From Gaiellaceae bacterium (GTDB taxonomy: Bacteria; Actinomycetota; Thermoleophilia; Gaiellales; Gaiellaceae): 58,596 nt of DNA. Positions 18,456 to 58,121 of the stretch are shown piece by piece. Each line of letters begins with the position of its first letter. The stretch's first letter is position 1. Under the pieces are notes generated by a model, which worked only from the letters and a program-made list of their open reading frames with translations, was not told where the DNA came from and did not search any database. Where the stretch lies: assembly GCA_035559835.1 (NCBI GenBank), contig DATMAP010000050.1:1-58596 (forward strand), read 5' to 3'. The translations under genes and the position numbers were made by a program.

Positions 18456-18464
18456 GCCCAGCTT

Positions 18465-18479: not shown

Positions 18480-18494
18480 TTGGGAGGAAAACCC

Positions 18495-18602: not shown

Positions 18603-18606
18603 GCCC

Positions 18607-19062
18607 GTGAGGATCGAGCTCACGGTCAACGGTGAGCGGCGCGAGGCGGACGTGTGGGCCGGGGAGAGCTTGCTCACGGCGCTCCGCGACCGCTTGGGCC
18701 TGCCCGGCTCGAAGAACGCCTGCGAGCAGGGCGAGTGCGGCTCCTGCTCGGTCCTTCTCGACGGCCGGCTCGTCTGCTCCTGCCTCGTGCTCGCGGCGCA
18801 GGCGCACGCGCACGAGGTGGTCACGGTGGAGGGGCTGGCGGCGGGCGGCGAGCTCCACCCGGTACAGGAGGCGTTCGTGGAGACGGGCGCGGTGCAGTGC
18901 GGCTTCTGCACGCCGGGCTTCGTGGTCGCCGCCGTCGACCTCCTCCGGCGGGTGCCCGACCCGAGCGAGGACGAGATCCGCGAGGCGCTCTCGGGGAACC
19001 TCTGTCGCTGCACGGGGTACCAGAAGATCCTGGAGGCCGTCCGGCTGGCGGCGGGGCGATGA
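18607..19062 (+). CDS. xanthine dehydrogenase family [2Fe-2S] subunit
   Basis: GTG start. CEQGECGSCSV, CGFCTPG and CRCTGY cluster motifs. Confidence 0.9.
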   Translation: MRIELTVNGERREADVWAGESLLTALRDRLGLPGSKNACEQGECGSCSVLLDGRLVCSCLVLAAQAHAHEVVTVEGLAAGGELHPVQEAFVETGAVQCGFCTPGFVVAAVDLLRRVPDPSEDEIREALSGNLCRCTGYQKILEAVRLAAGR

Positions 19063-22512: not shown

Positions 22513-22521
22513 GATCGCTGC

Positions 22522-23442: not shown

Positions 23443-23444
23443 GC

Positions 23445-24119: not shown

Positions 24120-24120
24120 G

Positions 24121-27492: not shown

Positions 27493-27508
27493 GCAGAAGG
27501 AGAGGGGC

Positions 27509-28654: not shown

Positions 28655-28667
28655 TGGACCACCGCTC

Positions 28668-31868: not shown

Positions 31869-31935
31869 GGCGAGGAGTCTAGACGAGCCCTCTTACGAGA
31901 TCGCCGGGCCAGGGTGTGCGAGGATCGGCTCGTCC

Positions 31936-32820: not shown

Positions 32821-32821
32821 C

Positions 32822-33820: not shown

Positions 33821-33859
33821 CATCCCCGCCCACTATCGTCCAGGTCGTCGTCTGAGGAG

Positions 33860-34921: not shown

Positions 34922-34924
34922 GGC

Positions 34925-36316
34925 TCAGGGTGACACGATGCGGAGCGAGGCGCGGTCTCCCGCGGTGCGTCCGTCCGCTGCACGCGCGACGAGGCGGAGG
35001 TCGTAGAGCCCGATTTTGAGCCGGGCGCGGAGCACGACCGCCCCTCGACCCGCCTCGGCGGAGGTGGTCGCCTGCGCGACCACGCGGCCGCGCCGGCGGA
35101 CGAGGAGGACCACGCGGGCGGAGCGGTTCACCGCGAACCGGATCGTGACGGGCTCCTGGGACCGCGCGCGGTACGCGCGGGCGAGGAGCCGCGCCGTGAG
35201 CGGCGCCCGCAGGTCGATCGAGACGAGCCGCACGCGGTTGTTCGCGGCGTCGCCGATCAGGTAGCCACGCTGGTTGGCGAGCACTGCGATCGCCTTCGGC
35301 TCGAAGAGGACCGCCTCGCTGGCGGAGCTCCCGTCACCACCGAACCCGACCGCTCCGGTCCCGGCGGCGGTCGTGATGACTCCACGCGCGTCGACCCGTC
35401 GGATGCGGTGGTTTCCCGTATCCGCGATGAGGAAGCCGCCGTCCGGAAGAGCCGCGACGGCGTGGGGCTCGTTCAGCCGGGCGGCGACCGCAGGGCCTCC
35501 GTCGCCGGAGTAGCCGGCCACGCCTGTGCCGGCGACGGTCGTGATCGTCCCGTCCGGCCAGACGCGCCGGACGCGGTTCCCCCTCCGCTCGACGATGAGG
35601 AAGCCGCCGTCCGCAACCGGCGAGACCCCGAAGGGGCCGTCGAGCTCAGCCGCCGTGGCCGGGCCCCCGTCCCCCGCCGAGCCGGCCACTCCGGTGCCGG
35701 CGACCGTCCGGATCCGTCCGTCGAGGCCGACGAGGCGGATGCGGTTGTTGCCGGAGTCAGGGATGAGAAGCTCGCCCGTGGGGAGAGCGGCGATCCCGCG
35801 GGGAAGGCTGAGCTCTGCCTGCCTCGCCGGCCCCCCGTCGCCCGAATAGCCGGCCACGCCTGTGCCGACGACGGTTGTGATCGTCCCATTCGGCGCCACG
35901 CGCCGAATGCGGTTGTTCAGCATGTCGGCCAGCACGTAGCCACCGTCCGGGAGGAGCGCGACGCCGTGCACGAAGTCGAGCTCCGCGGCCACAGCAGGCC
36001 CTCCGTCCCCGGAGAAGCCTGCGCTCCCTGTGCCGGCCACCGTCGTGATCGTGCCGTCGGCGCGCACGAGTCGAACCGTGTTGTTGAACGGCTCTGCGAA
36101 CAGGAAGCCGCCTCCCGGCAGCGCTGCGATCCCGCGTGGGTGCCCGATCTCGGCCTCGGTCGCGGGGCCGCCGTCTCCGCTGCGCCCGGCGACGCCCGTG
36201 CCGGCGACGGTGGTGATCGTTCCGACCCGGTGGGAGACGGCCCGGACGTCGCCGGGGAGCCAGGCGAGCGCGACTGCCAGGACGAGCGCGACGACGGCGG
36301 AGGTCTGGGTGCGCAT
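34925..36316 (-). CDS. secreted NHL-repeat beta-propeller protein
   Basis: Signal peptide, then six copies of ...ITTVAGTG.AG.SGDGGPA..A.L..P.G.A.L.DGG.L.AD..N.RIRRV..., followed by a roughly 100-aa Arg-rich beta-sandwich-like tail. Confidence 0.8.
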   Translation of the reverse strand: MRTQTSAVVALVLAVALAWLPGDVRAVSHRVGTITTVAGTGVAGRSGDGGPATEAEIGHPRGIAALPGGGFLFAEPFNNTVRLVRADGTITTVAGTGSAGFSGDGGPAVAAELDFVHGVALLPDGGYVLADMLNNRIRRVAPNGTITTVVGTGVAGYSGDGGPARQAELSLPRGIAALPTGELLIPDSGNNRIRLVGLDGRIRTVAGTGVAGSAGDGGPATAAELDGPFGVSPVADGGFLIVERRGNRVRRVWPDGTITTVAGTGVAGYSGDGGPAVAARLNEPHAVAALPDGGFLIADTGNHRIRRVDARGVITTAAGTGAVGFGGDGSSASEAVLFEPKAIAVLANQRGYLIGDAANNRVRLVSIDLRAPLTARLLARAYRARSQEPVTIRFAVNRSARVVLLVRRRGRVVAQATTSAEAGRGAVVLRARLKIGLYDLRLVARAADGRTAGDRASLRIVSP

Positions 36317-36330
36317 CCGCTCCTACGCGA

Positions 36331-37047
36331 CTAGGGCACGTACGCGCGGCGCACGTCGTCGAAGGTCCCGTCGGCCGCCACCGAGCCCTCGTGGAGCCAC
36401 AGCCCGCGGTTGCAGAGACGCTCGAGCAGCGGGTGGTCGTGTCCGGCGGCGACGAGCATGCCGCCGCGCCGCAGCAGGCGGTGCGCCTCCGCCTCCACGA
36501 GCTCGCGGAAGTCGTGGTCGAGCGCCTCGTGCACCTCGTCGAGGAGGAGGATCGAGGGCATCGCCTGCATGGCGATGGCGAACGAGAGGCGTGCCCGCAT
36601 ACCCTGCGAGTAGCTCGAGATCGGCCGATCGAAGGCGTCGCCGAGCGCGGTCCAGTCCCGGAGCTCATCCAGCGCCCGCCGGATGTGAGAGCGCGGCATC
36701 CCGGCGAGGACGCCGAGGAGGAGCGCGTTCTCCCGGCCCGTGAGGGCAGGGGTCAGGCCGGCGTCCACGGAGAGGAGCGACGCCACCCGTCCCCGCACGA
36801 GCAGGCGCCCCGCGTCGGGGCAGAGCACGCCGGCGAGCGTCCGCAGGAGCGTCGTCTTCCCCGAGCCGCTCGCGCCGACGAGCGCCACCGCGTCACCGGG
36901 AGCGAGTGCGAACGTGACGTCGCGGATGCCCCACGTCTCCGTCCCGCGGCGGCGGAGGCGCGCCAGGGTAGAGGTGACCACGCGCCGCTGCCGGTCGAAA
37001 CGGAAACGCACGCCAACTCCCTGCGCGGCGATGGTCGCGGTGGTCAT
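36331..37047 (-). CDS. ABC transporter ATP-binding protein (Wzt/TagH-type glycan exporter, short form)
   Basis: ATG 37047. Walker A GASGSGKTTL, signature YSQGMRARL, Walker B LLLDEV. Only 238 aa, so there is no C-terminal carbohydrate-binding extension. Confidence 0.85.
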   Translation of the reverse strand: MTTATIAAQGVGVRFRFDRQRRVVTSTLARLRRRGTETWGIRDVTFALAPGDAVALVGASGSGKTTLLRTLAGVLCPDAGRLLVRGRVASLLSVDAGLTPALTGRENALLLGVLAGMPRSHIRRALDELRDWTALGDAFDRPISSYSQGMRARLSFAIAMQAMPSILLLDEVHEALDHDFRELVEAEAHRLLRRGGMLVAAGHDHPLLERLCNRGLWLHEGSVAADGTFDDVRRAYVP

Positions 37048-37832
37048 AGCACCTTGGCGAACTCGCGTTGCTCGCGGGCGTAGACGGGCAGGAGCACCGC
37101 GAGCACGAGCAACGCCGCTGCGGCCGGGACGAGAAGCTGCCAGGCCTGCGGGCTGCGCCCGTAGAGGAAGACCGAGCGGTATGCCTCGAAGAGGCCGCTC
37201 AGGGGGTTCAGCGGCAGGAGGTCGTGCGCCCGGCCCCGGATGTCGGCCAGCGCTACGAGCCCTGGGGCGAGGAAGAACATGGCTCGCACGAAGCTGATCG
37301 CGAGCGCGCGCAGATCGGGGAACCAGAGCCCGAAGAGCGACGCGCCGTACGCGCAGGCCACGGCGACGAGGACGTTGACGGCGAGCACGACCGGCAGCCA
37401 CAGCACTGCGAGCGTGGGGGCGATCGCATACGCAGCCATCATCAGAGCCACGAGCAGCAGGCTGGAGCCGAAGGCGAGCGTCTCGGTGAGAGCGCCCGCC
37501 AGCGGGATCAGCGTTCGCTGAAAGCCCATGTTGAGGATGATCGAGGAGCGGGAGGCCACCGACCCGAGCCCGTTCGTCACCGACAGCATCACGAGCTGGA
37601 ACGGGATCACCGCGCACGCGAGGCTCAATCCCGCGGCGAGACCGGGGCGATGGATGACGAACGTGACGAGGAGCAGGTAGACGCCCACGAGCGCGAAGGG
37701 GTCGAGCAGCCACTTCACGAGGCGGAAGCCGCCGCGGCCGTAGCGGGCGCGGAGATCCGACTCCGTGAGCGCCAAGAGGACGTCGAGCCCGACTCCGGCC
37801 GCCAGTGCACGAACGTGCGCCAAGGGCGGCAC
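37044..37832 (-). CDS. ABC-2 type transporter permease (Wzm-like)
   Basis: ...SDLRARYGRGGFRLVKWLLDP... then six hydrophobic helices. ATGA overlap with the ATPase gene. Start GTG 37832 chosen; TTG near 37898 is possible. Confidence 0.7.
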   Translation of the reverse strand: MPPLAHVRALAAGVGLDVLLALTESDLRARYGRGGFRLVKWLLDPFALVGVYLLLVTFVIHRPGLAAGLSLACAVIPFQLVMLSVTNGLGSVASRSSIILNMGFQRTLIPLAGALTETLAFGSSLLLVALMMAAYAIAPTLAVLWLPVVLAVNVLVAVACAYGASLFGLWFPDLRALAISFVRAMFFLAPGLVALADIRGRAHDLLPLNPLSGLFEAYRSVFLYGRSPQAWQLLVPAAAALLVLAVLLPVYAREQREFAKVL

Positions 37833-37955
37833 GGCTGTGCGGGGCTCCTCGATCTCCGTTGCGGCGGCCTGGCGCTCGATGGAGGCGAGTCTAGGCAACG
37901 GGCGGGAGGGAGCGGGCACGTGGGATACTCCACCCGTGCGCCCCCGGCTCTCGAG

Positions 37956-38789
37956 GTGAGACTTCCGGCCAGCTCGTTTCTCGCGGCACCGCTGAAGAAC
38001 GCGAAGCAGGTGCTGCGCGCACGCCACACGTGGGCCCTCCAGCGCGCTCCCGAGCGGATCTTCCCCAGCTCCTGGCGAACGGGCCCGCCCGACTTCGTGG
38101 GCGTGGGGGTGCAGCGCTCCGGCACCACGTGGTGGTACGCGGCGATCGAGGCACACCCGGAGGTGCACCGGGTCCCCGGTGCCCCGAAGGAGCGGCAGTT
38201 CTTCGAGCCCTTCCACGCCGAGCCGTTCACGGTTGCGTCGGTCGAGCGCTACCACCGTCTCTTCCCGCGCCCGCCGGGGATGGTCACGGGGGAGTGGTCA
38301 CCCGCGTACGTCTACCACTACTGGACGCCGAGGCTGCTCGCCCTCGCAGCGCCCGAGGCCAGGCTTCTCGTACTCCTCCGCGACCCGGTCGAGCGGTACC
38401 TCTCGGCGGTCACCGGGGACGAGCGGAACAAGCGCCGCTCGCATCGCCGGGCGAGCGAAGCGTTCGAGCGCGGCCTCTACTTCGCGCAGCTCTCCCGCTT
38501 GCTCGAGCACTTCGACCGCGAGCAGGTGCTCGTCCTCCAGTACGAGCGCTGCCGTGAGCGACCGGAGGAGGAGCTGCGCCGGACGTACGCCTTCCTCGGG
38601 CTCGGCGACGTCGCCTTCGTGCCCGACATCCTGCACCGGGGTGTGAACGTGACTCGCACCCCCAAGCTCGAGCTCGGCGAGGAGCTGCTCACCTCGCTTC
38701 GAGAGGGCTACCGCCGCGACGCCGAGGCGCTCTTCACCGCGTTCCCCGAGCTCGACCCAGCGCTCTGGCGCGCGCTCGATCCGTCTTGA
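37956..38789 (+). CDS. sulfotransferase domain protein
   Basis: PSB-loop GVGVQRSGTTWWY and 3'-PB motif LLRDPVERYLS. Start uncertain (GTG 37956 or GTG 38010). Confidence 0.75.
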   Translation: MRLPASSFLAAPLKNAKQVLRARHTWALQRAPERIFPSSWRTGPPDFVGVGVQRSGTTWWYAAIEAHPEVHRVPGAPKERQFFEPFHAEPFTVASVERYHRLFPRPPGMVTGEWSPAYVYHYWTPRLLALAAPEARLLVLLRDPVERYLSAVTGDERNKRRSHRRASEAFERGLYFAQLSRLLEHFDREQVLVLQYERCRERPEEELRRTYAFLGLGDVAFVPDILHRGVNVTRTPKLELGEELLTSLREGYRRDAEALFTAFPELDPALWRALDPS

Positions 38790-38817
38790 GCGCCGACCTC
38801 CTCATACCTAGAGTGAG

Positions 38818-49790: not shown

Positions 49791-50009
49791 CTACTCGAGC
49801 GCGGCGAGGATCTCGGCCGGCTCGGGGAAGCGGCCTTCCGTGCGCTTCGAGAAGAGGAGCTGCCCGTCCGCGCGGACGTCGAACTGTCCCTTGGCGCCCG
49901 GGGTGATCGTCGCCGGGATCCCGGTCTTCGACTCGATCTCGGCCGCGAGACTCGCGGCTCGGGTGTCGTAGCCGGTTCAGGTCGGGCAGTAGAAGATCTC
50001 GACCCGCAC
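49791..50009 (-). CDS. SelW/Rdx-family selenoprotein (CxxU), in-frame TGA at 49979..49977
   Basis: Not in the ORF track. Minus-strand translation from GTG 50009: (M)RVEIFYCPT-U-TGYDTRAASLAAEIESKTGIPATITPGAKGQFDVRADGQLLFSKRTEGRFPEPAEILAALE*. The CxxU is in the Rdx redox-motif position, and GQFDV...G.LLFSK...GRFP is typical of the family. High GC3 on both sides of the TGA. Confidence 0.8.
49942..49958 (-). promoter_or_regulatory. candidate SECIS hairpin for the SelW-like gene
   Basis: RNA GCCGCG-AGUCU-CGCGGC (a 7th A-U pair is possible) starts 18 nt after the UGA. The apical loop contains GU. Confidence 0.55.
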
Positions 50010-50042: not shown

Positions 50043-50285
50043 GTGGCCACCGTCTTCGAGGTCGAGCAGGCGGGCTGCCCGAGCTGCGCACGCCGCGTGC
50101 GTGGCGCGCTGGAGGCGCTCGCCGCCGTCGCCGAGCTGACGATCGACGAGGAGCAGGACGTCGCCACCGTGCGCCTGGCTGACGCCGGCGCGTCCGAGGA
50201 CGCCGTCAACCGCGTCCTTGCCGAGGCGTCACAGGGGAGCGGCCACGCCTACCGCGTGAGACCGGGCTCCTGGCGCTCCGAGTAG
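50043..50285 (+). CDS. heavy-metal-associated (HMA)-like small protein with CxxC
   Basis: GTG 50043 gives (M)ATVFEVEQAGCPSCARRVRGALEALAAVAELTIDEEQDVATVRL..., a ferredoxin-like HMA layout with GCPSC in place of GMxCxxC. High GC3. Confidence 0.65.
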   Translation: MATVFEVEQAGCPSCARRVRGALEALAAVAELTIDEEQDVATVRLADAGASEDAVNRVLAEASQGSGHAYRVRPGSWRSE

Positions 50286-51258
50286 GCCGCCGCTCCGTAC
50301 GCTGCGGCGGTGCGCCCACACAGGCCTCCGCGTACTCGGCCGACTTCGCGCAGCAGCGCGTGAGCGTGGCCACGAACCTCGACTCCGCCGGGGAGAGGTC
50401 GCGGCCGGCGAGGGTGGCCAGCGAGAACTGCCGGGTCAGGGGAGAGAGCCCGTGGACACGGAACGCCTCCAGCTCCCCGCGCGCCACCTCTTCGGCCACC
50501 GCGTAGCGCGAGAGGAACGCGACCCCGAGTCCCTCGCGCGCGGCGCGCTTGATGGCCTCGCTCGAGCCCAGCTCCCAGCGCCCGCCGGTCTCGATCCCGG
50601 CAAGGGCCAAGGCCCGCTCGACGAGGGCTCGCGTGGACGAGCCGGGCTCGCGGCAGAGGAACAACCTGCCGCGCAGCTCGGCGAGCGGCAGATAGCCGGC
50701 CTCGAGCGGCAGCGTCCCCGGCTGCGCGATCCCGACCAGCTCGTCGTCGAGGAAGGGGGTGAGGGTGACGCGCTCGTCCGTCGCCTCGGCGCCCACGATC
50801 GCGAGCTGCACGCGGCTCGAGAGCAGCCGCCGGAGGATCTCCCCGCTCGAGGCGATCTCGACCTCGACGGTGACGCCGGGGTGGTCGCGCCGGAAGCAGC
50901 CGAGCGTGTCGGGGAGCAGGTAGACGCCGGGCGCGGTGGACGCGCCGACGTGGATCGTTCCCGTCTCCAGCCCCGTGAGCGCGGCGAGCTCCTCCTCCGC
51001 CCGGTCGAGGCTCGCGAGCGCCTGCGCGGCGCGGGCGGCGAGGACGCGGCCGGCCTCGGTCAGGCGGCTGCCGCGGCCGTTGCGCTCGACGAGACGCTGG
51101 CCCGCCGCCGTCTCGAGCAGGCGCAGGTGCTGACTTGCGCTCGGCTGGCCGATGCCGATCGCCTCGGCCGCGGCCGAGAGCGTGCCCCGGCGCTCGATCT
51201 CGACGAGGAGCCGCATGCGGGTCGTGTCCCAGAGCGCGCTCAGCGTCGTCTGCGCCAT
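50206..51258 (-). CDS. LysR-family transcriptional regulator
   Basis: N-terminal HTH (RGTLSAAAEAIGIGQPSASQHLRLLE) and a LysR substrate-binding domain. The roughly 50-aa Arg-rich tail overlaps the HMA gene 3' end. Confidence 0.85.
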   Translation of the reverse strand: MAQTTLSALWDTTRMRLLVEIERRGTLSAAAEAIGIGQPSASQHLRLLETAAGQRLVERNGRGSRLTEAGRVLAARAAQALASLDRAEEELAALTGLETGTIHVGASTAPGVYLLPDTLGCFRRDHPGVTVEVEIASSGEILRRLLSSRVQLAIVGAEATDERVTLTPFLDDELVGIAQPGTLPLEAGYLPLAELRGRLFLCREPGSSTRALVERALALAGIETGGRWELGSSEAIKRAAREGLGVAFLSRYAVAEEVARGELEAFRVHGLSPLTRQFSLATLAGRDLSPAESRFVATLTRCCAKSAEYAEACVGAPPQRTERRPTRSARSPVSRGRRGRSPVTPRQGRG

Positions 51259-51352: not shown

Positions 51353-51874
51353 ATGCCCCAGGAGCGCATCCGGGAGTCGATCGAGGCGGCACGTGGGTAT
51401 CTGAGCGAGCATCCCGAGGAGGCGCGCGCGCACGACCTGCCGGCCACGGCGGTGCTCGAGGAGGGGCTCCGCTGCCGGGTCGAGGGCCCCGCCGGCACGG
51501 CGATCGTGACGGACATGCCCGCGGCGGTCGGGGGTATGGCCTCCGCGCCGACGCCCGGCTGGCTGGCGCGCGCGGCGCTCGCGAGCTGCGACGCGACGGT
51601 GCTCGCCATGCGGGCCGCCGAGCTCGGGATCGCGATCGAGCGGATCGAGGTGACCGTCGAGAGCGAGTCCGACGACCGCGGCCTGCTCGGAGTCGCCGAG
51701 GCGCCGGCCGGGCCGCTCAGCGTGCGCGTGCGTGCCAGGCTGGTCGGAGGGAGCGTGGACGACGACGCGGTGCGCGCGCTGCGCTCGTGGCTCGAGGACC
51801 ACTCGCCCGTCGGCGGCGTCTACCGGCACGGCGTGCCGACCACCCTCGAGCTCGAGACGGTGGCCGTGCCGTGA
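51353..51874 (+). CDS. OsmC/Ohr-family protein
   Basis: 173 aa, GAGGAGG RBS. ...APTPGWLARAALASCDATV.... Divergent from the LysR gene. Confidence 0.8.
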   Translation: MPQERIRESIEAARGYLSEHPEEARAHDLPATAVLEEGLRCRVEGPAGTAIVTDMPAAVGGMASAPTPGWLARAALASCDATVLAMRAAELGIAIERIEVTVESESDDRGLLGVAEAPAGPLSVRVRARLVGGSVDDDAVRALRSWLEDHSPVGGVYRHGVPTTLELETVAVP

Positions 51875-52620: not shown

Positions 52621-53843
52621 GCTCGATCCGGCTGGGCCTGCGGGCGAACGCCCGCCAGTTCTCCCTGCTCGTCGGGATCACGGGACTCGTCGGGGCGGCC
52701 GCCGGCCTCGAGCGCAGCGTCCTCCCGCTCGTCGGCGAGGAGGAGTTCGGGATCGCGTCGCGGACGGCGATCCTCGCCTTCGTCGCCACCTTCGGGGCCG
52801 CGAAGGCGGCGGCCAACCTCTTCTCCGGGCCGCTCGCGGAGCGGTCGGCCCGGAAGCGCGTGCTCGTGCTCGGCTGGCTGGCCGTGCTGCCGGTGGGGCC
52901 GATCGTCGCGCTCGCGCCCTCCTGGTCGACCATCGTCGCCGCCAACGCGCTCCTCGGCGCCGGCCAGGGCCTCGCTTGGTCGATGACGATCGTGATGAAG
53001 ATCGACCTCGTCGGCCCGGCGCGCCGAGGCCTGGCTCTGGGGCTGAACGAGGCGGCGGGCTACCTCGGGGTCGCCGTCGCGGCCTTCGCGACCGGGGCGG
53101 CAGCGAGCGCGGTCTCGCCGCGGACGGCGGTGTGGGTCGGGATGGCGGGCGTGTCGGCGCTCGGGCTGCTCGCCTCGCTCGTCCCGGCGCGGGACACCTC
53201 GGCGCACGTCGCGCACGAGCAGGCCGCGCACGGAGCGGCGCGGGCGGCGTCGCTGCGGCGCGCGCTCGGAGCGAGCGTGCGCGCTCCCGTGCTGCGCGCC
53301 TGCTCCCAGGCGGGCTTCGTCAACAACCTGAACGACGCCGTGCTCTGGGGCCTCGTCCCCCTCTACCTCGCGGCGCGCGGCGCGACCGCGGCCGAGATCG
53401 GGCTCGCGGCAGGCGTGTATCCGGCCGTCTGGGGGCTCGGGCAGGTCGCCACCGGCTGGGCCTCCGACCACCTCGGGCGCAAGCCGCTCGTCGTCGCCGG
53501 GATGCTCGTGCAGGGCGCCGCGCTCGCGCTCCTGGCTGCCGGAGGTGGCGATCTCGCCTCCGCTCTCGTCGCCTCCGTGCTCCTCGGCCTGGGCACGGCG
53601 CTCGCCTACCCGACGCTGATCGCGGCCGTCTCCGACGTGGTCAGCCCCCGGGACCGAGCGCCCGCCGTCGGCGTCTACCGCTTCTGGCGAGACGCCGGCT
53701 TCGTCGCCGGCGCCGTCGCGGTCGGGCTCGTCGCCGACGCCGCGGGAGCGCAGGCGGCGATCGGCGTGACCGCCGCGCTGACCGCCCTCTCGGGGGTGTG
53801 GGTCGCGGCCGTCCGCTTCGCTACGAGCGCGTCGCGCGGATGA
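52617..53843 (+). CDS. MFS transporter
   Basis: GTG 52617 (GTGA overlap). 12-TM-like profile. ...DHLGRKP... loop motif. Confidence 0.8.
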   Translation: MSSIRLGLRANARQFSLLVGITGLVGAAAGLERSVLPLVGEEEFGIASRTAILAFVATFGAAKAAANLFSGPLAERSARKRVLVLGWLAVLPVGPIVALAPSWSTIVAANALLGAGQGLAWSMTIVMKIDLVGPARRGLALGLNEAAGYLGVAVAAFATGAAASAVSPRTAVWVGMAGVSALGLLASLVPARDTSAHVAHEQAAHGAARAASLRRALGASVRAPVLRACSQAGFVNNLNDAVLWGLVPLYLAARGATAAEIGLAAGVYPAVWGLGQVATGWASDHLGRKPLVVAGMLVQGAALALLAAGGGDLASALVASVLLGLGTALAYPTLIAAVSDVVSPRDRAPAVGVYRFWRDAGFVAGAVAVGLVADAAGAQAAIGVTAALTALSGVWVAAVRFATSASRG

Positions 53844-54615
53844 CCGCGCAGACGGCGATCCGTTCGAGCCGCTCGGGCGCGATCAGCCGGCGCATGGTCG
53901 CGAGCAGCTCCTCCGTGAAGAGCGGGTAGAGCTCGCAGTCCGCGATTCCCATCGGCGTCCGCTCGAGCACCTCGATCTCCGAGAAGCCCGCCCGCTCGAG
54001 CTTTCCGACGAAGTCACGCTCCGTCAGGGCACCCGCCACTCAGCCGGCCCAGGCAGCCGGGTGCGTCAGCACCTCCGGCGGGAGCTCCTCGTCCTCCACG
54101 GTGACGTCGGCGACGCAGAGCTCGCCGCCGGGCCTCAGCACGCGCGCGCACTCGGCCAGCGCCCGCGCCTTGCGCGGCGAAAGGTTGATGACCCCGTTCG
54201 AGAGCACGCAGTCGACGCTCGCCTCGGGAAGCGGGATCGCCTCCATCTCCCCCTCGAGCGTCTCCACGTTGTCGAGCCCGGCCTCCTGCGCCGCCGCGGC
54301 CGTCCGCCCGAGCATCTCGGGGAGGAAGTCGAGCGCGAGCACGCGGCCGGAGGGGCCCGTTCGGTGCGCAGCCAGGATCGTGTCGATGCCAGCGCCGCAG
54401 CCGAGATCGAGGACGGTGTCGCCCGGCCGGATGCGCGCGTGGCGGAGGTGGTTGCCGACGCCGAGGGCGCGCCCGACCGCCGACGCCGGGACGAGGGCGA
54501 GCTCCTCGGGCGAGTAGAGCCTCTCGGCGACCGCGCGGCTCTCGCCGTCGACCGCGCGGTAGGCCTCGCGCACGAGCGCCCGGATCTCGTCTTGGTGCAG
54601 GAGGTCGCGGGTCAT
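53821..54615 (-). CDS. ArsM/AS3MT-like SAM-dependent methyltransferase, probable selenoprotein (in-frame TGA at 54042..54040)
   Basis: Track ORFs 54040..54615 and 53821..54039 are contiguous and in the same frame. Joined: ...VLDLGCGAGID...VLSNGVINLS...LTHPAAWAG-U-VAGALTERDFVGKLERAGF.... The U sits where ArsM/AS3MT have the conserved Cys of W.GC.AGAL. Confidence 0.75.
54005..54027 (-). promoter_or_regulatory. candidate SECIS hairpin for the methyltransferase gene
   Basis: RNA CUGACGGAG-CGUGA-CUUCGUCGG: 9-bp stem (2 G-U pairs), 5-nt loop containing GU. Starts 12 nt after the UGA. Confidence 0.5.
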
Positions 54616-54845
54616 GCTCCGCCGAGCTCGTCGAGCGTCGCCACGAGCCGGGCGCGGACCTGCGGCGGGAGGTCGTCCTCGGCGTGGGCGGCGAGGAAGG
54701 CGCGGAGCTCCTCCGCGAACTCGAGCTCGCCGCAGCAGCGGCGACAGAAGGCGAGGTGCTCCTCGACCTGCGCGCGCCGCGACTCCTCGACGATCCCGTC
54801 GAGGTAGTCCCAGAGCTGACGCACTGCCTCCGCGCAGGTGATCAC
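54612..54845 (-). CDS. ZAS-family (RsrA-like) anti-sigma factor
   Basis: GTG 54845 gives (M)ITCAEAVRQLWDYLDG...EEHLAFCRRCCGELEF. HxxxCxxC zinc/redox motif plus N-terminal Cys. GTGA and ATGA overlaps with both neighbours. Confidence 0.8.
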   Translation of the reverse strand: MITCAEAVRQLWDYLDGIVEESRRAQVEEHLAFCRRCCGELEFAEELRAFLAAHAEDDLPPQVRARLVATLDELGGA

Positions 54846-55441
54846 GCGCGCGCGCCTTCCTTCAGGAGGCCGTTCCGCTCGGCGTAGCTCCAGAGCTCGC
54901 GCTCGAAGAGCTTCCGCCCGCGGTGGAGCCGCGCGAGCATCGTCCCCAGCGGCACCTCGAGCATGAAGGCGACCTCCTTCACGTGGTAGCCGGCCATGTG
55001 CACGAGGACGAGGGGGACGCGGTACAGCTCGGGCAGCGAGGCGAGGACGGCGCGCACGTCCTCGCCGCCGAACTGCTGCAGGAAGTCGAGGTGCACCGAG
55101 TCCGAGTACGGGAAGGGGTCCTCGTCGGCGATCTTCCGGAAGAGCGAGAACTCGTCGGCCTTCTCCAGCTCGACGGTCTCGACCCGGCGTCCCTGCGCGC
55201 GCCAAAGGTCGTGGCAGCAGTTGACGAGGATCGCCGTGAGCCAGTCGCGCCCGGCACCGTCGTCCGCGAGCTGGGAGAAGCCTCGGTAGGCGCGGAGCAG
55301 GCACTCCTGGACGACGTCCTCGGCGTCGTCGCCGACGAGGCGGCGCGCGAGCGCGTACAGCCGGCCGAGCTCGCTCTCGGCGAGCCTCCGGAACCGCTCG
55401 ACCGAGGCGGTGCCGCTGCCCGTGGAGATGGCGTCGCCCAC
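54842..55441 (-). CDS. ECF-type RNA polymerase sigma-70 family factor
   Basis: Region 2 (DAEDVVQECLLRAYRGF) and region 4 HTH (VKEVAFMLEVPLGTMLARLHRGRKLF). Confidence 0.85.
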   Translation of the reverse strand: MGDAISTGSGTASVERFRRLAESELGRLYALARRLVGDDAEDVVQECLLRAYRGFSQLADDGAGRDWLTAILVNCCHDLWRAQGRRVETVELEKADEFSLFRKIADEDPFPYSDSVHLDFLQQFGGEDVRAVLASLPELYRVPLVLVHMAGYHVKEVAFMLEVPLGTMLARLHRGRKLFERELWSYAERNGLLKEGARA

Positions 55442-55481
55442 AACTCCGCTCCCTCGTAGAGACGCTCCCGGAGAGGAAGTT

Positions 55482-55495
55482 ATTGCAGGTGCAAT
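55482..55495. promoter_or_regulatory. AT-rich palindrome ATTGCA-gg-TGCAAT
   Basis: Sits in the 117-bp divergent gap between the ECF sigma gene (start 55441, -) and the OsmC gene (55559, +). The local sequence is the most AT-rich stretch of the gap. Confidence 0.35.
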
Positions 55496-55558
55496 GAGAT
55501 CCGGGACGCGGCCGTCTTACCGGGGGAGAGAGCAGGGAATCCGAACAGGAGGGAGGAG

Positions 55559-56131
55559 ATGGCGACCGTAACGGTGCGCAACGGCGTCGACGTGGGGGCG
55601 CTGCTCGAGACGATCGACGCGATCAAGGCCAAGCCAGAGCTCGCGAGCTTCACCTTCCGCGCGCGTACCCGGTGGCAGGAGGGGACGTGCGCGACCGCGC
55701 AGATCGGCTCGTTCCTGCACGCGGGGGCGGAGGACGGGACCCGCGAGCAGCCCTTCACGCTCGTGGGCGACGAGCCGCCCGTGCTCCTCGGGCACAACCA
55801 GGGCCCGAACGCGGTCGAGCTCCTGCTGGCCGCGCTCGGCTTCTGCTACTCGGTCGGCTACGTGGCGAACGCGGCCGCGCGCGGGATCGAGATCGAGGAG
55901 ATGTCGTACGAGCTCGAGGGCGACCTCGACGTCCGCAGCTTCCTCGGCCTCGAGGGCGGCGCTCGTCCCGGGTTCACGGAGATCCGGGCAAAGGCGCGCG
56001 TCAAGGCCCCGGGAGCGAGCAAGCAGGAGCTGAAGGAGCTCTGCGCCTACGTGCAGGACACGTCGCCGGTCCTGGACGCGCTCGCGAATCCGGTGCCGGT
56101 CAAGACGACGATCGAGGTGCTCGGGGCGTAG
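55559..56131 (+). CDS. OsmC-family protein
   Basis: 190 aa, GGAGGGAGGAG RBS. ...NAVELLLAALGFCYSVGY... OsmC-like core. Confidence 0.8.
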   Translation: MATVTVRNGVDVGALLETIDAIKAKPELASFTFRARTRWQEGTCATAQIGSFLHAGAEDGTREQPFTLVGDEPPVLLGHNQGPNAVELLLAALGFCYSVGYVANAAARGIEIEEMSYELEGDLDVRSFLGLEGGARPGFTEIRAKARVKAPGASKQELKELCAYVQDTSPVLDALANPVPVKTTIEVLGA

Positions 56132-56173: not shown

Positions 56174-56677
56174 ATGAGCACCGTCGCGACCCGGCACGGA
56201 ACGGCCGAAGAGGCGGGTTCGAGGCTGCGGCTCGGCACGGGCCTGATGACGCTCGGCGCGGCCGCGTTCATCGGCTACGCCGTCGTCTTCTTCGTGCGCA
56301 ACTTCACCGACAGCTTCCTCGAGCTCGGGATCGGACCCGGCCAAGTGAGCGTGGGCAAGGAGGAGATCCAGGACTTCAGCCCCTCCCTCTACGACTACGT
56401 CGGCCACCTGCACATCGCCGTCTCCGGCTTCATCGCCGCGACCGGCCTCGCCGTAGTCTTCCTGAGCTGGTTCGGCGTCCGGCGCGGGCAGGCGTGGGCC
56501 TGGGTCGGGGCTGTCGCGGCGCCCGTGCTCGGGCTCGCCGTCGCGCTGCCTGCCCACTATCCGTACGGCTTCGACACGATCGGCCACCTGGGGCTGATCT
56601 ACCTGGCCACGGCCATCTTCGTCGTCGGTGCCGTGCTCTCGGGCCAAGCGCTGCTCGCCGGGCGGGTGGGGCGCTGA
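56174..56677 (+). CDS. hypothetical membrane protein (4 TM)
   Basis: 167-aa ORF with four hydrophobic helices, GAGAGGAG RBS. No family recognised. Confidence 0.6.
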   Translation: MSTVATRHGTAEEAGSRLRLGTGLMTLGAAAFIGYAVVFFVRNFTDSFLELGIGPGQVSVGKEEIQDFSPSLYDYVGHLHIAVSGFIAATGLAVVFLSWFGVRRGQAWAWVGAVAAPVLGLAVALPAHYPYGFDTIGHLGLIYLATAIFVVGAVLSGQALLAGRVGR

Positions 56678-56694
56678 GCCGGATGGAGCAGTTA

Positions 56695-56720
56695 GCCGCG
56701 CCGGCCGAGGCCGGCGCGGC
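56695..56720 (+). terminator. perfect 11-bp GC stem hairpin
   Basis: gccgcgccggc-cgag-gccggcgcggc, 18 nt after the stop of the 56174-56677 gene. No U-tract. Confidence 0.5.
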
Positions 56721-56804
56721 GACCTGCGATCGGGAAAAGCGATGGACGGTATCCCGATGCTCGGGTTGACCGATGGAGTAGGACGGCGTAGGGTCGAAGC
56801 GCCG

Positions 56805-57503
56805 ATGGCGTCGTCCTCACACGGGAACGGAGAGGCGGCAGCCGTGACCGTCGGCTCCCGCAGCGCGAGAGTCGCAACCCGTCTGGGGACGCTCGGCGGG
56901 AGGGACCGGGCGCAGGTGGCGGCAGGGAGCGCCCTGGTCGCCGCCTCGGCGCTTGCCTGGCTCGCGCTCGCTGGCACCGAGCCGCCGCTGGGCGCGGCCG
57001 GCTTCCTCGCTGGCTGGACGCTGATGATGGTGGCGATGATGCTCCCCTCGATCCTGCCGCTCGTGCTGCTCCACCGCGGCTCACGGGCGGGGTTGGTGGC
57101 GGGGTACCTGGGCGTCTGGAGCGCGCTCGGCCTCCTCCCGTACGCGGCCATGGAGTGGGGCCTCGAGCTCGGGCTCCCGCTCGTGCTCGCGCTCGCGGGC
57201 CTGTACGAGCTGAGCCCGCTGAAGTCCGCCTGCCTGCGGCGATGCCGCAACGTTGCCGGGTTCCTGCTCGAGCACTACCGCAGCGGGCCGCTCCGGCTCG
57301 GGGCCGAGCACGGCCTGTGGTGCGCCGGCTGCTGCGCAGGCCTGATGGCGCTGCTCGTGCTCGCCGCCTCCATGGGCCTGCAGTGGGCGGCGGCGATCGC
57401 GGCGGTCGTGTTCGTCCAGAAGGTCCTGTCCTTCGGCGAGCCCTCGGCCCGGGTCGTGGGCGCCGGGCTGCTCGCCGCCGCCGCGCTCGTCGCGGTCACC
57501 TGA
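56805..57503 (+). CDS. DUF2182-like predicted metal-binding integral membrane protein
   Basis: ATG 56805 (alternatives 56742 and 56757). ...FLAGWTLMMVAMMLPSILP... and ...SPLKSACLRRCR... are typical of DUF2182, assigned from memory. Confidence 0.7.
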   Translation: MASSSHGNGEAAAVTVGSRSARVATRLGTLGGRDRAQVAAGSALVAASALAWLALAGTEPPLGAAGFLAGWTLMMVAMMLPSILPLVLLHRGSRAGLVAGYLGVWSALGLLPYAAMEWGLELGLPLVLALAGLYELSPLKSACLRRCRNVAGFLLEHYRSGPLRLGAEHGLWCAGCCAGLMALLVLAASMGLQWAAAIAAVVFVQKVLSFGEPSARVVGAGLLAAAALVAVT

Positions 57504-57515: not shown

Positions 57516-58121
57516 ATGGCCGAGTCGTGGACGATGAAGGGGACGGTCCTGATCGCGTGCAACTGCGCCTACGGCTGCCCGTGCAACTTCAACGCCCTGC
57601 CGACGACCGGCAAGTGCGAGGGAGAGTGGACGTGGCACGTCGAGGAGGGCGCCTACGGCACCGTCGACCTCCGCAGCGTGACTTTCACGCTGGCCGTGAA
57701 CTGGCCGGGCGCGATCCACGAGGGCAACGGCGTCGCTCTGCTGCTGGTCGACGAGCGCACGACCCCCGCGCAGCGGGACGCGATCCACACCCTGGTCAAG
57801 GGCGAGGCGGGCGGCCCCTGGGGCGTCCTCGGCTGGACGTGGCCGACGCTGCACGGGCCGGAGGCCGTGTCCTTCGAGCTCGAGCTGGACGGCCTTCGCT
57901 CCCGCGTCCGCGCGGGCGCAGGGTTCGAGCTGGAGCTGGAGCCGATCCGGAACCCCGTCTCCGGGGCGGAGGTGACGCCGGGCGCGGTGCTTCCGCAGGG
58001 GATCGTCTTCAAGCAGGGCGACTTCGCCTCCACGAGGAGGTACCGGGTGGAGGCGCTGGGCATCGACTACCGGGATACGTACGCGGCCGTGGCGCCCTTC
58101 GACTACGCCGGAGGGAAGTGA
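57516..58121 (+). CDS. DUF1326-like Cys-rich protein
   Basis: N-terminal W.MKGTVLIACNCAYGCPCNFNALPTTGKCEG cysteine cluster and about 200 aa length. GAGGAGAGTGG RBS. Confidence 0.7.
   Translation: MAESWTMKGTVLIACNCAYGCPCNFNALPTTGKCEGEWTWHVEEGAYGTVDLRSVTFTLAVNWPGAIHEGNGVALLLVDERTTPAQRDAIHTLVKGEAGGPWGVLGWTWPTLHGPEAVSFELELDGLRSRVRAGAGFELELEPIRNPVSGAEVTPGAVLPQGIVFKQGDFASTRRYRVEALGIDYRDTYAAVAPFDYAGGK

What the first reader, a model, noticed from the sequence alone, without database searches (positions are those of the whole stretch)
53821..54615. ArsM/AS3MT-like methyltransferase in which the only surviving active-site Cys position is an in-frame UGA: probable selenoenzyme
The ORF track shows two minus-strand ORFs (54040..54615 and 53821..54039) that abut exactly and share one frame, separated by a single TGA (54042..54040). 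Read through, the product is a normal-length (264 aa) class I methyltransferase: ...DTVLDLGCGAGID...VDCVLSNGVINLS...PEVLTHPAAWAG-U-VAGALTERDFVGKLERAGFSEIEV.... In ArsM/AS3MT enzymes, W.GC(I/L/V)AGAL carries one of the three metalloid-binding cysteines (the C206 region of human AS3MT). Here that exact position is the TGA. The other two canonical cysteines are absent: GVGN instead of GCGN, and SNGVINL instead of SNCVINL. High GC3 continues on both sides of the TGA. A 9-bp stem / 5-nt loop hairpin with GU in the loop begins 12 nt downstream (54005-54027). A second TGA-containing redox gene lies 4 kb away. So the enzyme would have a single Sec in place of a Cys triad, which argues against classical As(III) methylation and for a different substrate or chemistry (selenium, tellurium, thiol or electrophile). 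I cannot tell from here whether this subfamily has already been catalogued.
Basis: partly seen in the sequence, partly recalled or inferred. Interest (0 to 1): 0.85.

Follow-up and report, generated by a model that had tools for sequence, protein, structure and literature searches.

The report
Selenocysteine methyltransferase, ArsM-like, in Actinomycetota
The in-frame TGA is a real selenocysteine codon in a 264-residue ArsM-like methyltransferase. Selenocysteine at this position is already known in the family, so this is an unannotated new member, and what it methylates is still unknown.

Summary
One minus-strand frame (53821-54615) is broken only by TGA at 54040-54042, and read through it gives a normal 264-aa class I methyltransferase.

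The TGA is a Sec codon, not a defect:
- 58 distinct orthologs (51-99% aa identity; Gaiellaceae, Acidimicrobiia and other Actinomycetota MAGs, soil metagenomes) keep TGA in this column. Sister clades have TGC.
- The ~72-aa tail stays under purifying selection.
- Codons +5 to +11 after the TGA are frozen at synonymous sites (pS 0.019 against ~0.48 in the flanks). They form a 7-bp stem with loop CGUGN, 21 nt after UGA, and one pair covaries (A-U/G-U/G-C). Cys forms lack this hairpin.
- A SelW-like CxxU selenoprotein gene lies 4 kb away.

The two "missing" ArsM cysteines are absent from the whole subfamily, Cys forms included.

The gene is the third cistron of a conserved operon: ECF sigma, RsrA-like anti-sigma, methyltransferase. 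No ars genes are nearby, so canonical As(III) methylation is unlikely. A role in thiol-reactive stress is inferred.

Sec at this column of ArsM-like enzymes is already catalogued (Fomenko 2007; UxxG motif). This is therefore a new, unannotated member of a known kind. selA/B/C/D could not be checked.

The parts
53821..54615 (-). Full methyltransferase gene: 264 codons with Sec at codon 192, ATG start at 54615, TAG stop at 53821-53823
   Evidence: Pfam Methyltransf_31/25/11. Best NCBIfam match is NF008823 arsenite methyltransferase, 216.7 bits against a cut-off of 263. Full-length Cys homologs are 263-270 aa.
54040..54042 (-). UGA read as selenocysteine (Sec192), in the motif W-A-G-U-V-A-G
   Evidence: TGA at this column in 58 distinct orthologs and TGC in 9 Cys-form loci. 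It aligns with the C224-equivalent cysteine of ArsM structures.
54007..54025 (-). Conserved SECIS core: 7-bp stem GACGGAG/CUUCGUC with apical loop CGUGA, 21 nt after UGA. In this window the stem extends to 9 bp (54005-54027).
   Evidence: Stem pairs are 98-100% paired in 58 sequences. Pair 18-34 covaries: A-U 39, G-U 12, G-C 7, no mismatches. The loop is CGUG[A/C/U/G]. Third-position entropy is 0.00-0.13 bits here against about 1.0-1.7 elsewhere. pS is 0.019 against about 0.48. The hairpin is absent from Cys forms. It meets the bSECIS rules quoted. MFE is -10.8 kcal/mol.
54612..54845 (-). Anti-sigma factor, 77 aa, zf-HC2 with C4 and H30-x3-C34-x2-C37 (RsrA-like ZAS). Its stop overlaps the methyltransferase start (ATGA).
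   Evidence: Best NCBIfam match is TIGR03988 anti-sigma-R RsrA, 51.6 bits against a cut-off of 62.5. Found next to the methyltransferase in 56 of 66 Sec loci and 8 of 9 Cys loci.
54842..55441 (-). ECF sigma factor, 199 aa, first gene of the three-gene operon. Its stop overlaps the anti-sigma start (GTGA).
   Evidence: Sigma70_r2 and r4_2. Best NCBIfam match is SigH_actino, far below cut-off. Conserved in 50 of 66 Sec loci and 8 of 9 Cys loci, including Streptomyces and Solirubrobacterales.
55559..56131 (+). OsmC-like protein, transcribed divergently from the sigma operon. A recurrent but not universal neighbour.
   Evidence: PF02566. Found in 15 related loci.
56174..56677 (+). Membrane protein of unknown function, 167 aa, read by eye as having about four hydrophobic segments. 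A recurrent neighbour, also present next to Cys forms.
   Evidence: Divergent genes of 169-170 aa sit in the same place in L108 and L109.
49791..50009 (-). Second selenoprotein gene: SelW/SelT/SelH (Rdx) family, motif C-P-T-U, TGA at 49977-49979, hairpin 49942-49958 with loop GUC 25 nt after UGA
   Evidence: PF10262, E 1e-15. TIGR02174 CXXU_selWTH, 45.8 bits against a cut-off of 34.2. TGA is kept in 4 related loci at 70-94% identity.

Best explanation
The gene encodes one 264-residue selenoprotein. The UGA at 54040-54042 is decoded as selenocysteine, directed by a bacterial SECIS hairpin 21 nt downstream (core 54007-54025).

The protein belongs to a large, mostly actinobacterial branch of the ArsM/AS3MT methyltransferase superfamily. 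This branch keeps the SAM-binding fold and only one of the three metalloid-binding cysteine positions, the CmArsM C224 / hAS3MT C206 column. That column holds Sec in this clade and Cys in sister clades.

The gene is the third, translationally coupled cistron of a conserved operon: ECF sigma factor, small RsrA-like zinc anti-sigma factor, methyltransferase.

**Shown here**
- Sec coding and the SECIS element.
- The architecture of the subfamily.
- The operon and its conservation.

**Inferred**
- The operon is switched on by thiol-reactive (disulfide, electrophile or soft-metalloid) stress sensed by the anti-sigma factor.
- The single selenolate holds a substrate that needs only one protein ligand, in front of the SAM methyl group, so that it is methylated and detoxified. 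Candidates are a selenium, tellurium or sulfane-sulfur species, or an already methylated arsenical. The substrate is not inorganic As(III), which needs three thiolates.
For: **Sec coding**
- A pattern scan of one genome per species found 16 true orthologs with TGA in this column (Gaiellaceae, Acidimicrobiales/Acidimicrobiia and other Actinomycetota MAGs). They are 51-86% identical to the window protein, and each has a conserved tail, mostly 72-78 aa.
- A metagenome scan using only the N-terminal part found 47 TGA and 6 TGC loci.
- Pooled, this gives 58 distinct TGA sequences.
- pN/pS is 0.43 upstream and 0.57 downstream of the TGA, so the tail is still under selection as protein.
- All 28 full-length homologs aligned have Cys at this column.

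**SECIS**
- Codons +5 to +11 are invariant at synonymous sites. This includes a CGT Arg codon kept in 58 of 58 sequences.
- The last loop base changes the amino acid (D/A/V/G), so the constraint acts on the RNA.
- Pair 18-34 covaries with no mismatches.
- The hairpin fits the published bSECIS rules.
- The nine Cys-form loci lack it.

**Sec use by this organism**
- A SelW-like CxxU gene with its own G-loop hairpin lies 4 kb away. Its TGA is kept in four relatives.
- TGA is also the commonest ordinary stop in the window, so this is not a reassigned genetic code.

**Not canonical ArsM**
- Gly stands at the C72 and C174 equivalents.
- The NF008823 score is below its cut-off.
- No ars genes turned up among the recurrent neighbours.

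**Operon**
- The sigma, anti-sigma and methyltransferase genes have overlapping stop and start codons.
- The module is conserved in Sec and Cys forms.
- The anti-sigma has C...HxxxCxxC, and its best match is RsrA.

**Sulfur and redox flavour of the partners**
- OsmC and a DsrE-like protein (sequence resemblance only) recur as neighbours.
- A Cys sister clade carries a C-terminal TusA fusion.
Against: - No selA, selB, selD or tRNA-Sec is in the window or in any fetched locus. The decoding machinery is therefore inferred, not seen.
- The hairpin in this one sequence is not better than shuffled controls.
- The functional part is inference only. No member of the single-Cys/Sec subfamily was found to be characterised in the literature searches.
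- The anti-sigma and sigma factors score below the RsrA and SigH equivalog cut-offs, so the stimulus is a guess by analogy.
- hAS3MT work states that dimethylarsenite binds a single cysteine (PMC3877260 abstract). An arsenic-related late-step role is therefore not excluded.
Confidence: 0.9

Rival explanations
1. The TGA is a nonsense mutation, a sequencing error or an assembly error. On this view the gene is a decaying pseudogene or a truncated 191-aa protein.
For: Gene callers split the gene into 191-aa and 72-aa ORFs in every public record seen. No Sec machinery is visible in the window.
Against: - The same TGA is in 58 distinct sequences from independent samples and genomes, down to 51% aa identity.
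- The tail is under purifying selection and mostly keeps its usual length.
- A hairpin specific to the TGA forms is frozen at synonymous sites.
Confidence: 0.02
2. The TGA is a true stop and the enzyme is made as two polypeptides. The 72-aa C-terminal piece would be re-initiated at the GTG immediately after the TGA (TGAGTG).
For: A GTG follows the TGA directly in the window and in most orthologs.
Against: - Codon +1 is not always a start codon. It is GTC in L027 and Ile in three sequences.
- All Cys forms are single chains with Cys exactly at this column.
- Re-initiation would not explain a hairpin 21 nt downstream with a conserved G-U loop and covariation.
- The break would cut through the middle of the substrate-binding motif W-x-G-C-x-x-G.
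Confidence: 0.03
3. It is a selenoprotein, but its job is still arsenic methylation. It would be an ArsM variant that uses Sec plus low-molecular-weight thiols, or that acts only on already methylated As(III) species.
For: - Its best family match is arsenite methyltransferase, NF008823.
- Its closest solved structures are ArsM.
- JGI names many homologs 'arsenite methyltransferase'.
- The catalogued Sec form of the family has the same UxxG motif.
- Dimethylarsenite is stated to need one cysteine ligand (PMC3877260 abstract).
Against: - Two of the three As(III)-binding cysteines are Gly throughout the subfamily.
- The NF008823 score is below the curated cut-off.
- NCBI names the Cys homologs only 'methyltransferase domain-containing protein'.
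- The conserved context is an ECF sigma/ZAS module with OsmC, DsrE-like and TusA partners. It is not an ars operon.
Confidence: 0.15
4. The UGA is read through as an ordinary amino acid, either by near-cognate Trp or Cys insertion or under a reassigned genetic code. Selenocysteine would not be involved.
For: No tRNA-Sec or selB was seen.
Against: - TGA ends most ordinary genes in the window, so the code is standard.
- The column is Cys in homologs, which is the classic Sec/Cys pairing.
- The downstream element matches the SelB-type bSECIS model.
- A canonical CxxU SelW-family gene lies on the same contig.
Confidence: 0.02

Closest known systems
Sec-containing arsenite methyltransferase in the prokaryotic selenoprotein catalogues (NF008823/PRK11873, motif UxxG, representative WP_011987699.1; Fomenko et al. 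2007 Science 315:387, as listed in PMC13188914 and PMC9312934)
   Same: It has the same superfamily domain and one Sec. The Sec sits in a U-x-x-G motif (here U-V-A-G) at the column that is Cys in homologs.
   Different: - The window protein scores below the NF008823 cut-off.
- It lacks the other two metalloid-binding cysteines.
- It comes from high-GC Actinomycetota.
- It sits in a sigma/anti-sigma operon.

I could not retrieve the catalogued representative to see whether it keeps those cysteines. Truncated-at-Sec forms of both kinds exist in public data. P0224 and P0248 keep GCG and SNCVINL. P0121-P0160 do not.
Canonical ArsM/AS3MT (CmArsM, PDB 4FS8/4FR0/4KW7; Chlamydomonas ArsM, 5EVJ; human AS3MT)
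   Same: It shares the class I SAM-dependent methyltransferase fold. Conserved motifs include LDLGCGxGxD, SN-x-V-x-NL and W/Y-x-x-C-x-x-GAL. The alignment E-value is 5e-29, and the Sec column matches C224 of CmArsM (C206 of hAS3MT).
   Different: - Gly replaces the C72 (C61) and C174 (C156) equivalents.
- The protein is about 264 aa against 320-390 aa.
- There is no ars-operon context.
- Inorganic As(III) is stated to need three cysteines (PMC3877260 abstract).
NCBIfam selenoprotein fusion models: ArsM/AhpD (NF041537), ArsM/DUF2284 (NF041536) and methyltransferase/UXPK-star (NF047649)
   Same: The methyltransferase domain is homologous (152-171 bits over residues ~30-220), and these are Sec-containing relatives.
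   Different: The scores are far below the cut-offs of 460-575 bits. The window protein has no AhpD, DUF2284 or UXPK-star module and only one Sec.
SigR-RsrA / SigH-RshA thiol-oxidative stress module of Actinobacteria (ZAS anti-sigma factors)
   Same: An ECF sigma gene is followed by a small soluble anti-sigma with an N-terminal Cys plus H-x3-C-x2-C. The best NCBIfam hits are RsrA (TIGR03988) and SigH_actino.
   Different: Both score below the equivalog cut-offs, so this is a paralogous pair. The operon carries a dedicated methyltransferase as a third cistron. I do not know this arrangement from sigR-rsrA (own knowledge), and it was not checked here.
SelW/SelT/SelH (Rdx) CxxU selenoproteins
   Same: The neighbouring gene 49791-50009 passes TIGR02174 and PF10262 with Sec in the CxxU motif.
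   Different: This match concerns the neighbouring gene, not the methyltransferase. It is relevant only as independent evidence that the organism decodes UGA as Sec.

Membership tests
Bacterial selenoprotein gene (UGA recoded as Sec) | In-frame UGA at a column occupied by Cys in homologs | tested here: met
   All 28 full-length homologs aligned have Cys there. Among the related loci, 9 have TGC and 67, counting the window itself, have TGA.
Bacterial selenoprotein gene (UGA recoded as Sec) | Coding sequence continues and is conserved downstream of the UGA | tested here: met
   GC3 is 0.92 downstream. The tail is mostly 72-78 aa and conserved in orthologs. pN/pS is 0.57 downstream against 0.43 upstream.
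Bacterial selenoprotein gene (UGA recoded as Sec) | bSECIS: apical loop of 3-9 nt with G in its first two positions, upper stem of 4-16 bp, 16-37 nt after UGA, MFE <= -7.5 kcal/mol (rules as quoted in PMC13188914) | tested here: met
   Loop CGUGA, stem 9 bp (7 bp conserved), spacing 21 nt, -10.8 kcal/mol.
Bacterial selenoprotein gene (UGA recoded as Sec) | SECIS conserved at the RNA level among Sec forms and absent from Cys forms | tested here: met
   Synonymous-site entropy is 0.00-0.13 bits in codons +5 to +11. One pair covaries. pS is 0.019. Cys forms do not fold here.
Bacterial selenoprotein gene (UGA recoded as Sec) | selA, selB, selD and tRNA-Sec present in the same genome | not testable with these tools
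   None are in the window or in 52 related loci scanned for tRNAs.
Bacterial selenoprotein gene (UGA recoded as Sec) | Other selenoprotein genes in the same organism | tested here: met
   A SelW-like CxxU gene lies 4 kb away and passes TIGR02174. Its TGA is conserved in 4 relatives.
Catalogued Sec-containing arsenite methyltransferase (NF008823, UxxG) | Sec in a U-x-x-G motif of the methyltransferase domain | tested here: met
   The motif here is U-V-A-G. The motif is as listed.
Catalogued Sec-containing arsenite methyltransferase (NF008823, UxxG) | Score at or above the NF008823 curated cut-off | tested here: not met
   216.7 bits against a cut-off of 263.
ArsM/AS3MT As(III) S-adenosylmethionine methyltransferase | Class I SAM-binding domain homologous to ArsM | tested here: met
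   Pfam methyltransferase domains. Match to 5evj at E 5e-29 and to 4fr0 at E 4e-21.
ArsM/AS3MT As(III) S-adenosylmethionine methyltransferase | Cysteine equivalent to CmArsM C72 / hAS3MT C61 (GCG motif) | tested here: not met
   Gly54 in GVGN. Every aligned subfamily member has Val where ArsM has this Cys (G-V-x-[NH]).
ArsM/AS3MT As(III) S-adenosylmethionine methyltransferase | Cysteine equivalent to CmArsM C174 / hAS3MT C156 (SNCV motif) | tested here: not met
   Gly141 in SNGVINL. It is invariant in the subfamily.
ArsM/AS3MT As(III) S-adenosylmethionine methyltransferase | Cysteine equivalent to CmArsM C224 / hAS3MT C206 | tested here: met
   The position is occupied by Sec192, and by Cys in sister clades.
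ArsM/AS3MT As(III) S-adenosylmethionine methyltransferase | Arsenic-resistance gene context (arsR, arsB/ACR3, arsC). This is typical rather than obligatory, from general knowledge of ars operons. | tested here: not met
   Five Pfam-annotated contexts and a neighbour clustering over 76 loci gave sigma, anti-sigma, OsmC, a membrane protein, a DsrE-like protein and an MFS protein. None of the recurrent clusters looked like an ars gene, but several had no family assignment. One Streptomyces locus has an ArsR-type HTH next to a cation-efflux gene.
ArsM/AS3MT As(III) S-adenosylmethionine methyltransferase | Methylates As(III) in vitro or in vivo | not testable with these tools
   This needs an enzyme assay.
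SigR/RsrA-type ZAS sigma/anti-sigma pair | Anti-sigma with a zinc-binding H-x3-C-x2-C motif plus an upstream Cys, next to an ECF sigma gene | tested here: met
   C4 and H30-x3-C34-x2-C37. zf-HC2 Pfam hit. The sigma factor has regions 2 and 4.
SigR/RsrA-type ZAS sigma/anti-sigma pair | Scores at or above the RsrA (TIGR03988) and SigH_actino (TIGR02947) equivalog cut-offs | tested here: not met
   51.6 against 62.5 bits, and 89.2 against 251.6 bits. The pair is a paralog, not an ortholog.

The most novel reading that the evidence does not exclude
The single-Sec/Cys branch would not be an arsenic enzyme. It would be a distinct, widespread stress-response module of soil Actinomycetota, possibly extending to Chloroflexota and other phyla. 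In it, a SigR/RsrA-like redox switch controls a dedicated methyltransferase. The lone selenolate or thiolate would capture a chalcogen or sulfane-sulfur species (selenide or selenotrisulfide, tellurium, persulfide) and methylate it to a volatile or harmless product. Sec would be the ancestral state, with the large Cys clades (Streptomyces and others) derived from it by Sec-to-Cys replacement.
Probability: 0.25. Interest if true: 0.65.

Novelty: new member of a known kind. Interest (0 to 1): 0.45.

Why it matters
**Annotation.** A whole clade of soil actinobacterial methyltransferase genes is split into 191-aa and 72-aa fragments in every public record seen. The fragments are named 'arsenite methyltransferase', 'UbiE' or 'SAM-dependent methyltransferase'. 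The near-invariant element UGA-N18-ACGGAGCGUGNCUUCGU is an easy signature for repairing these records.

**Sec use in a poorly known group.** Aerobic, high-GC soil Actinomycetota (Gaiellaceae, Acidimicrobiia) carry at least two selenoprotein genes side by side. In the one full-text search on this, no paper dealt with selenoproteins in Gaiellales.

**Arsenic surveys.** Metagenomic counts of 'arsM' based on homology probably include this large subfamily, which lacks two of the three As(III) ligands. This may inflate estimates of arsenic-methylation potential.

**Biology.** A conserved operon that couples an RsrA-like redox switch to a single methyltransferase is a testable lead. It points to an uncharacterised detoxification reaction.

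Tried and rejected
**Searches that found nothing useful**
- tRNA-Sec was sought with ARAGORN in the window and in 52 related loci. None was found.
- Rfam at gathering thresholds over the whole window gave no match.
- Pfam annotation of essentially all window ORFs, looking for selA, selB or selD, found none. One call failed on wrong coordinates.
- An exact look-up of the window's own 191-aa fragment returned only a 1.9-kb contig, which was no help in finding the rest of the genome.
- Literature searches turned up nothing specific. Topics tried were selenoproteins in Actinobacteria or Gaiellales, ArsM homologs lacking cysteines, an ECF group with a conserved methyltransferase, and ArsM acting on selenite or tellurite.
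- The catalogued representative WP_011987699.1 appears only in the two reviews. I could not see its sequence.

**Ideas considered and dropped**
- A second interrupted gene at 1675-3174 (+). The stretch after that TGA does not look like coding sequence, and the MqnA-like domain starts about 100 codons later.
- The promoter and terminator scan of 53600-55800 found nothing. It is uninformative for ECF promoters.
- Single-sequence folding significance for the hairpin is weak (z = -1.5). I rely on the comparative data instead.
- Structure prediction was not run. The tool returns no coordinates, so it could not show which residues surround Sec192.

**Caveat on the tree**
- The neighbour-joining tree suggests that Sec forms are paraphyletic with Cys clades nested inside. 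It has no support values and a midpoint root, so I treat it only as a hint.


Full report
**1. The observation**

On the minus strand, 54615-53821 is a single reading frame broken only by TGA at 54042-54040. Read through, it gives a 264-residue protein with Pfam class I methyltransferase domains. GC3 is 0.96 in the 50 codons before the TGA and 0.92 in the 50 after. In the whole window this is the only internal TGA with a coding signature on both sides.

The best NCBIfam match is NF008823, arsenite methyltransferase. The score is 216.7 bits, below the curated cut-off of 263.

Alignment to solved ArsM structures (5evj at E 5e-29; 4fr0 and 4kw7) maps the three metalloid-binding cysteine positions as follows:
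- Gly54 (GVGN) lies opposite the GCG cysteine.
- Gly141 (SNGVINL) lies opposite the SNCV cysteine.
- The TGA lies opposite the GEC(L/A)GGAL cysteine.

The hairpin at 54005-54027 exists: 9 bp, loop CGUGA, -10.8 kcal/mol. In this 73% GC sequence it is not, on its own, better than shuffled controls. The z-score is -1.5, and 19 of 200 shuffles fold as well.

**2. Is the TGA a Sec codon?**

*Homologs.* A search of 5.8 billion proteins gave more than 3,800 homologs. The best full-length ones are 263-270 aa and 65-73% identical, from Streptomyces, Solirubrobacterales and other Actinomycetota. All 28 that I aligned have Cys at the TGA column, in the motif WAGCVAGAL. The only closer hit is a 191-aa fragment that stops at the same place. 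This means public gene calls truncate the TGA forms.

*Genome scan.* I scanned one genome per species for GCN GCN TGG GCN GGN TGA GTN GCN GG. Of 24 hits, 16 are true orthologs with TGA in this column and a conserved tail, mostly 72-78 aa (two are longer and two run into a contig end). They come from Gaiellaceae, Acidimicrobiales/Acidimicrobiia and unclassified Actinomycetota MAGs. They are 51-86% identical to the window protein. The closest named relative is a Gaiellaceae MAG at 86%.

*Metagenome scan.* A scan seeded only with the N-terminal 191 residues, and so blind to the codon in question, gave 47 loci with TGA and 6 with TGC.

*Pooled set.* Together there are 58 distinct TGA-form sequences. 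Their pairwise nucleotide identity around the site is 51-99%, with a median of 74%.

*The tail is still a protein.* pN/pS is 0.57 for codons +12 to +38, against 0.43 for the 30 codons upstream.

*An RNA-level constraint follows the TGA.*
- Third-codon-position entropy is about 1.0-1.7 bits along most of the gene. It collapses to 0.00-0.13 bits for codons +5 to +11 (CTG ACG GAG CGT GAC TTC GTC).
- pS in those codons is 0.019, against about 0.48 in the flanks.
- The Arg codon CGT is kept in 58 of 58 sequences. In Cys forms that residue varies freely.
- Inside the frozen stretch, the last loop base changes and alters the amino acid (D/A/V/G). The constraint therefore acts on the RNA, not the protein.

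*The structure.*
- The frozen stretch folds into a 7-bp stem with the 5-nt loop CGUG[A/C/U/G], starting 21 nt after the UGA.
- Six of the seven pairs are 100% paired and the seventh is 98% paired.
- Pair 18-34 covaries: A-U 39, G-U 12, G-C 7, with no mismatches.
- This meets the published bacterial SECIS rules: a loop of 3-9 nt with G in its first two positions, a stem of 4-16 bp, a spacing of 16-37 nt, and MFE <= -7.5 kcal/mol (PMC13188914).
- The nine Cys-form loci vary at these synonymous sites and do not form the hairpin. Their mean local MFE is -4.4 kcal/mol, against -9.8 for the Sec forms.

*Independent evidence from the same contig.*
- The gene at 49791-50009 (-) is a SelW/SelT/SelH (Rdx) protein with the canonical C-P-T-U motif. 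It hits PF10262 at E 1e-15 and passes the TIGR02174 cut-off.
- It has its own hairpin with loop GUC, 25 nt after the UGA.
- Its TGA is kept in four related loci that also carry the Sec methyltransferase.
- TGA is also the commonest ordinary stop in the window, so the genetic code is standard.

*Alternatives to Sec.*
- A pseudogene or a sequencing error is excluded by the comparative data.
- A split enzyme re-initiated at the GTG after the TGA is unlikely, because that codon is GTC or ATC in some orthologs.
- What remains untested is the decoding machinery. No selA, selB, selD or tRNA-Sec is in the window or in the fetched loci.

**3. What kind of enzyme is it?**

The two 'missing' cysteines are not a peculiarity of this gene. 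Gly at the SNCV position is invariant, and none of the 28 full-length homologs aligned has Cys in the GCG motif. The truncated Sec-form representatives look the same. The subfamily does have partly conserved cysteines of its own (C156, C167, C227). These are not invariant among the Sec forms.

A library-wide search with the N-terminal part found two kinds of ORF that end just before this column:
- The single-Sec kind has G-x-G and SNGV. It includes proteins from a Dehalococcoidia MAG and from 'bacterium HR16'.
- The canonical three-cysteine kind keeps GCG and SNCVINL.

All of them are annotated as plain methyltransferases.

According to hAS3MT work, inorganic arsenite is held by three cysteines, methylarsenite by two and dimethylarsenite by one (PMC3877260 abstract). 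A site with a single chalcogen is therefore a poor fit for As(III).

**4. Context**

*The operon.*
- The methyltransferase start overlaps the stop of a 77-aa zf-HC2 protein (ATGA). That protein's start overlaps the stop of an ECF sigma factor (GTGA).
- The small protein has C4 and H30-x3-C34-x2-C37. Its best NCBIfam match is the anti-sigma-R factor RsrA (51.6 bits, cut-off 62.5).
- The sigma factor is closest to actinobacterial SigH, but far below that cut-off.

*Conservation.* The sigma, anti-sigma, methyltransferase trio is found in 50-56 of 66 Sec loci and in 8 of 9 Cys loci. The Cys loci include Streptomyces jeddahensis, a Solirubrobacterales MAG, and a clade in which the methyltransferase carries a C-terminal TusA domain.

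*Other neighbours.* Other recurrent neighbours are OsmC, a 167-aa membrane protein of unknown function, and a small DsrE-like protein. No ars gene turned up among them.

**5. Mechanism**

*Shown here:* UGA-Sec recoding through a conserved SECIS element, a single-chalcogen ArsM-like active site, and a conserved sigma/ZAS/methyltransferase operon.

*Inferred:*
- By analogy with SigR-RsrA, thiol-reactive stress would release the sigma factor and induce the operon.
- The Sec192 selenolate would bind a soft substrate that needs one protein ligand and present it to the SAM methyl group.
- The substrate is unknown. Selenium, tellurium or sulfane-sulfur species fit the TusA, DsrE-like and OsmC company. 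Late-step methylation of arsenicals is not excluded.

**6. Comparison with what is known, and novelty**

Two reviews list 'arsenite methyltransferase' among experimentally verified prokaryotic selenoproteins. The later one gives domain NF008823 and motif UxxG, and both trace the entry to Fomenko et al. 2007. NCBIfam also holds three Sec-ArsM fusion models.

The window protein has the same domain and the same motif (U-V-A-G). Sec at this column is therefore not new.

What appears to be undescribed:
- This large actinobacterial Sec clade.
- Its near-invariant SECIS.
- The lack of the other two cysteines.
- The sigma/anti-sigma operon.

None of the Sec forms is annotated as a selenoprotein in the collections searched.

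I rate it a new member of a known kind, of moderate interest.

Noticed in passing
window 49791-50009 (-); TGA at 49977-49979; hairpin 49942-49958: A SelW/SelT/SelH (Rdx) family selenoprotein gene with motif C-P-T-U and its own G-loop hairpin 25 nt after the UGA. In four related loci (L027, L028, L034, L038) it lies within a few kb of the Sec methyltransferase and keeps its TGA.
   Followed up: yes
L043/L044, L110; proteins P0005, P0054, P0100: A Cys-form sister clade (CVAGVLTER) still carries the 5' arm of the SECIS (CTGAC[GT]GAGCGT) but has lost the 3' arm. This looks like a relic of a recent Sec-to-Cys replacement. Most members of the clade (not P0005) also have a C-terminal TusA sulfur-carrier domain fused on.
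   Followed up: partly
window 55559-56131 (+) and 51353-51874 (+): Two OsmC-like genes flank the region. Both give sub-threshold hits to the NCBIfam 'OsmC-related (seleno)protein' domain model. They contain no in-frame TGA, and their active-site residues were not examined. A LysR regulator (50206-51258, -) lies beside the second one.
   Followed up: no
window 56174-56677 (+); also L108 3381-3890 and L109 3540-4052: A 167-170-aa protein with no family assignment, which looks like a membrane protein with about four hydrophobic segments. It recurs divergently upstream of the sigma/anti-sigma/methyltransferase operon in both Sec and Cys lineages (14-20 loci).
   Followed up: partly
window 56628-57503 (+) and 57516-58121 (+): A PpoB2 (copper chaperone family) gene is followed by a DUF1326 gene. 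This pair was seen in only a few close relatives.
   Followed up: no
window 7817-9715 (-), 11230-15531 (+), 17553-21275 (+): A cluster that looks like purine catabolism. It holds a urate-oxidase N-terminal domain fused to cytochrome c, a BMP-family ABC transporter, and the three subunits of a xanthine-dehydrogenase-type molybdenum hydroxylase (FAD, 2Fe-2S and MoCo). It was not checked for a link to selenium.
   Followed up: no
window about 22500-38800: A large cluster that looks like polysaccharide or glycolipid modification. It holds several GT2 and GT4 glycosyltransferases, two adjacent class I methyltransferases (24121-25649, -), a polysaccharide deacetylase, two sulfotransferases, an amine oxidase and an NHL-repeat protein.
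   Followed up: no
proteins P0224, P0248, P0124: Other ORFs end just before the same column. Two keep the canonical GCG and SNCVINL cysteines, so they look like three-ligand ArsM with Sec as the third ligand. P0124 is a 608-aa AhpD + ArsM + second-methyltransferase protein whose last domain stops at ...DAWAT. These probably match the known NCBIfam Sec-ArsM fusion families.
   Followed up: partly
window 53821-53843: The 3' end of the methyltransferase gene overlaps the 3' end of a convergent MFS transporter ORF on the plus strand (ending at 53843) by 23 nt. The same arrangement is seen in the near-identical contigs L001 and L002.
   Followed up: no
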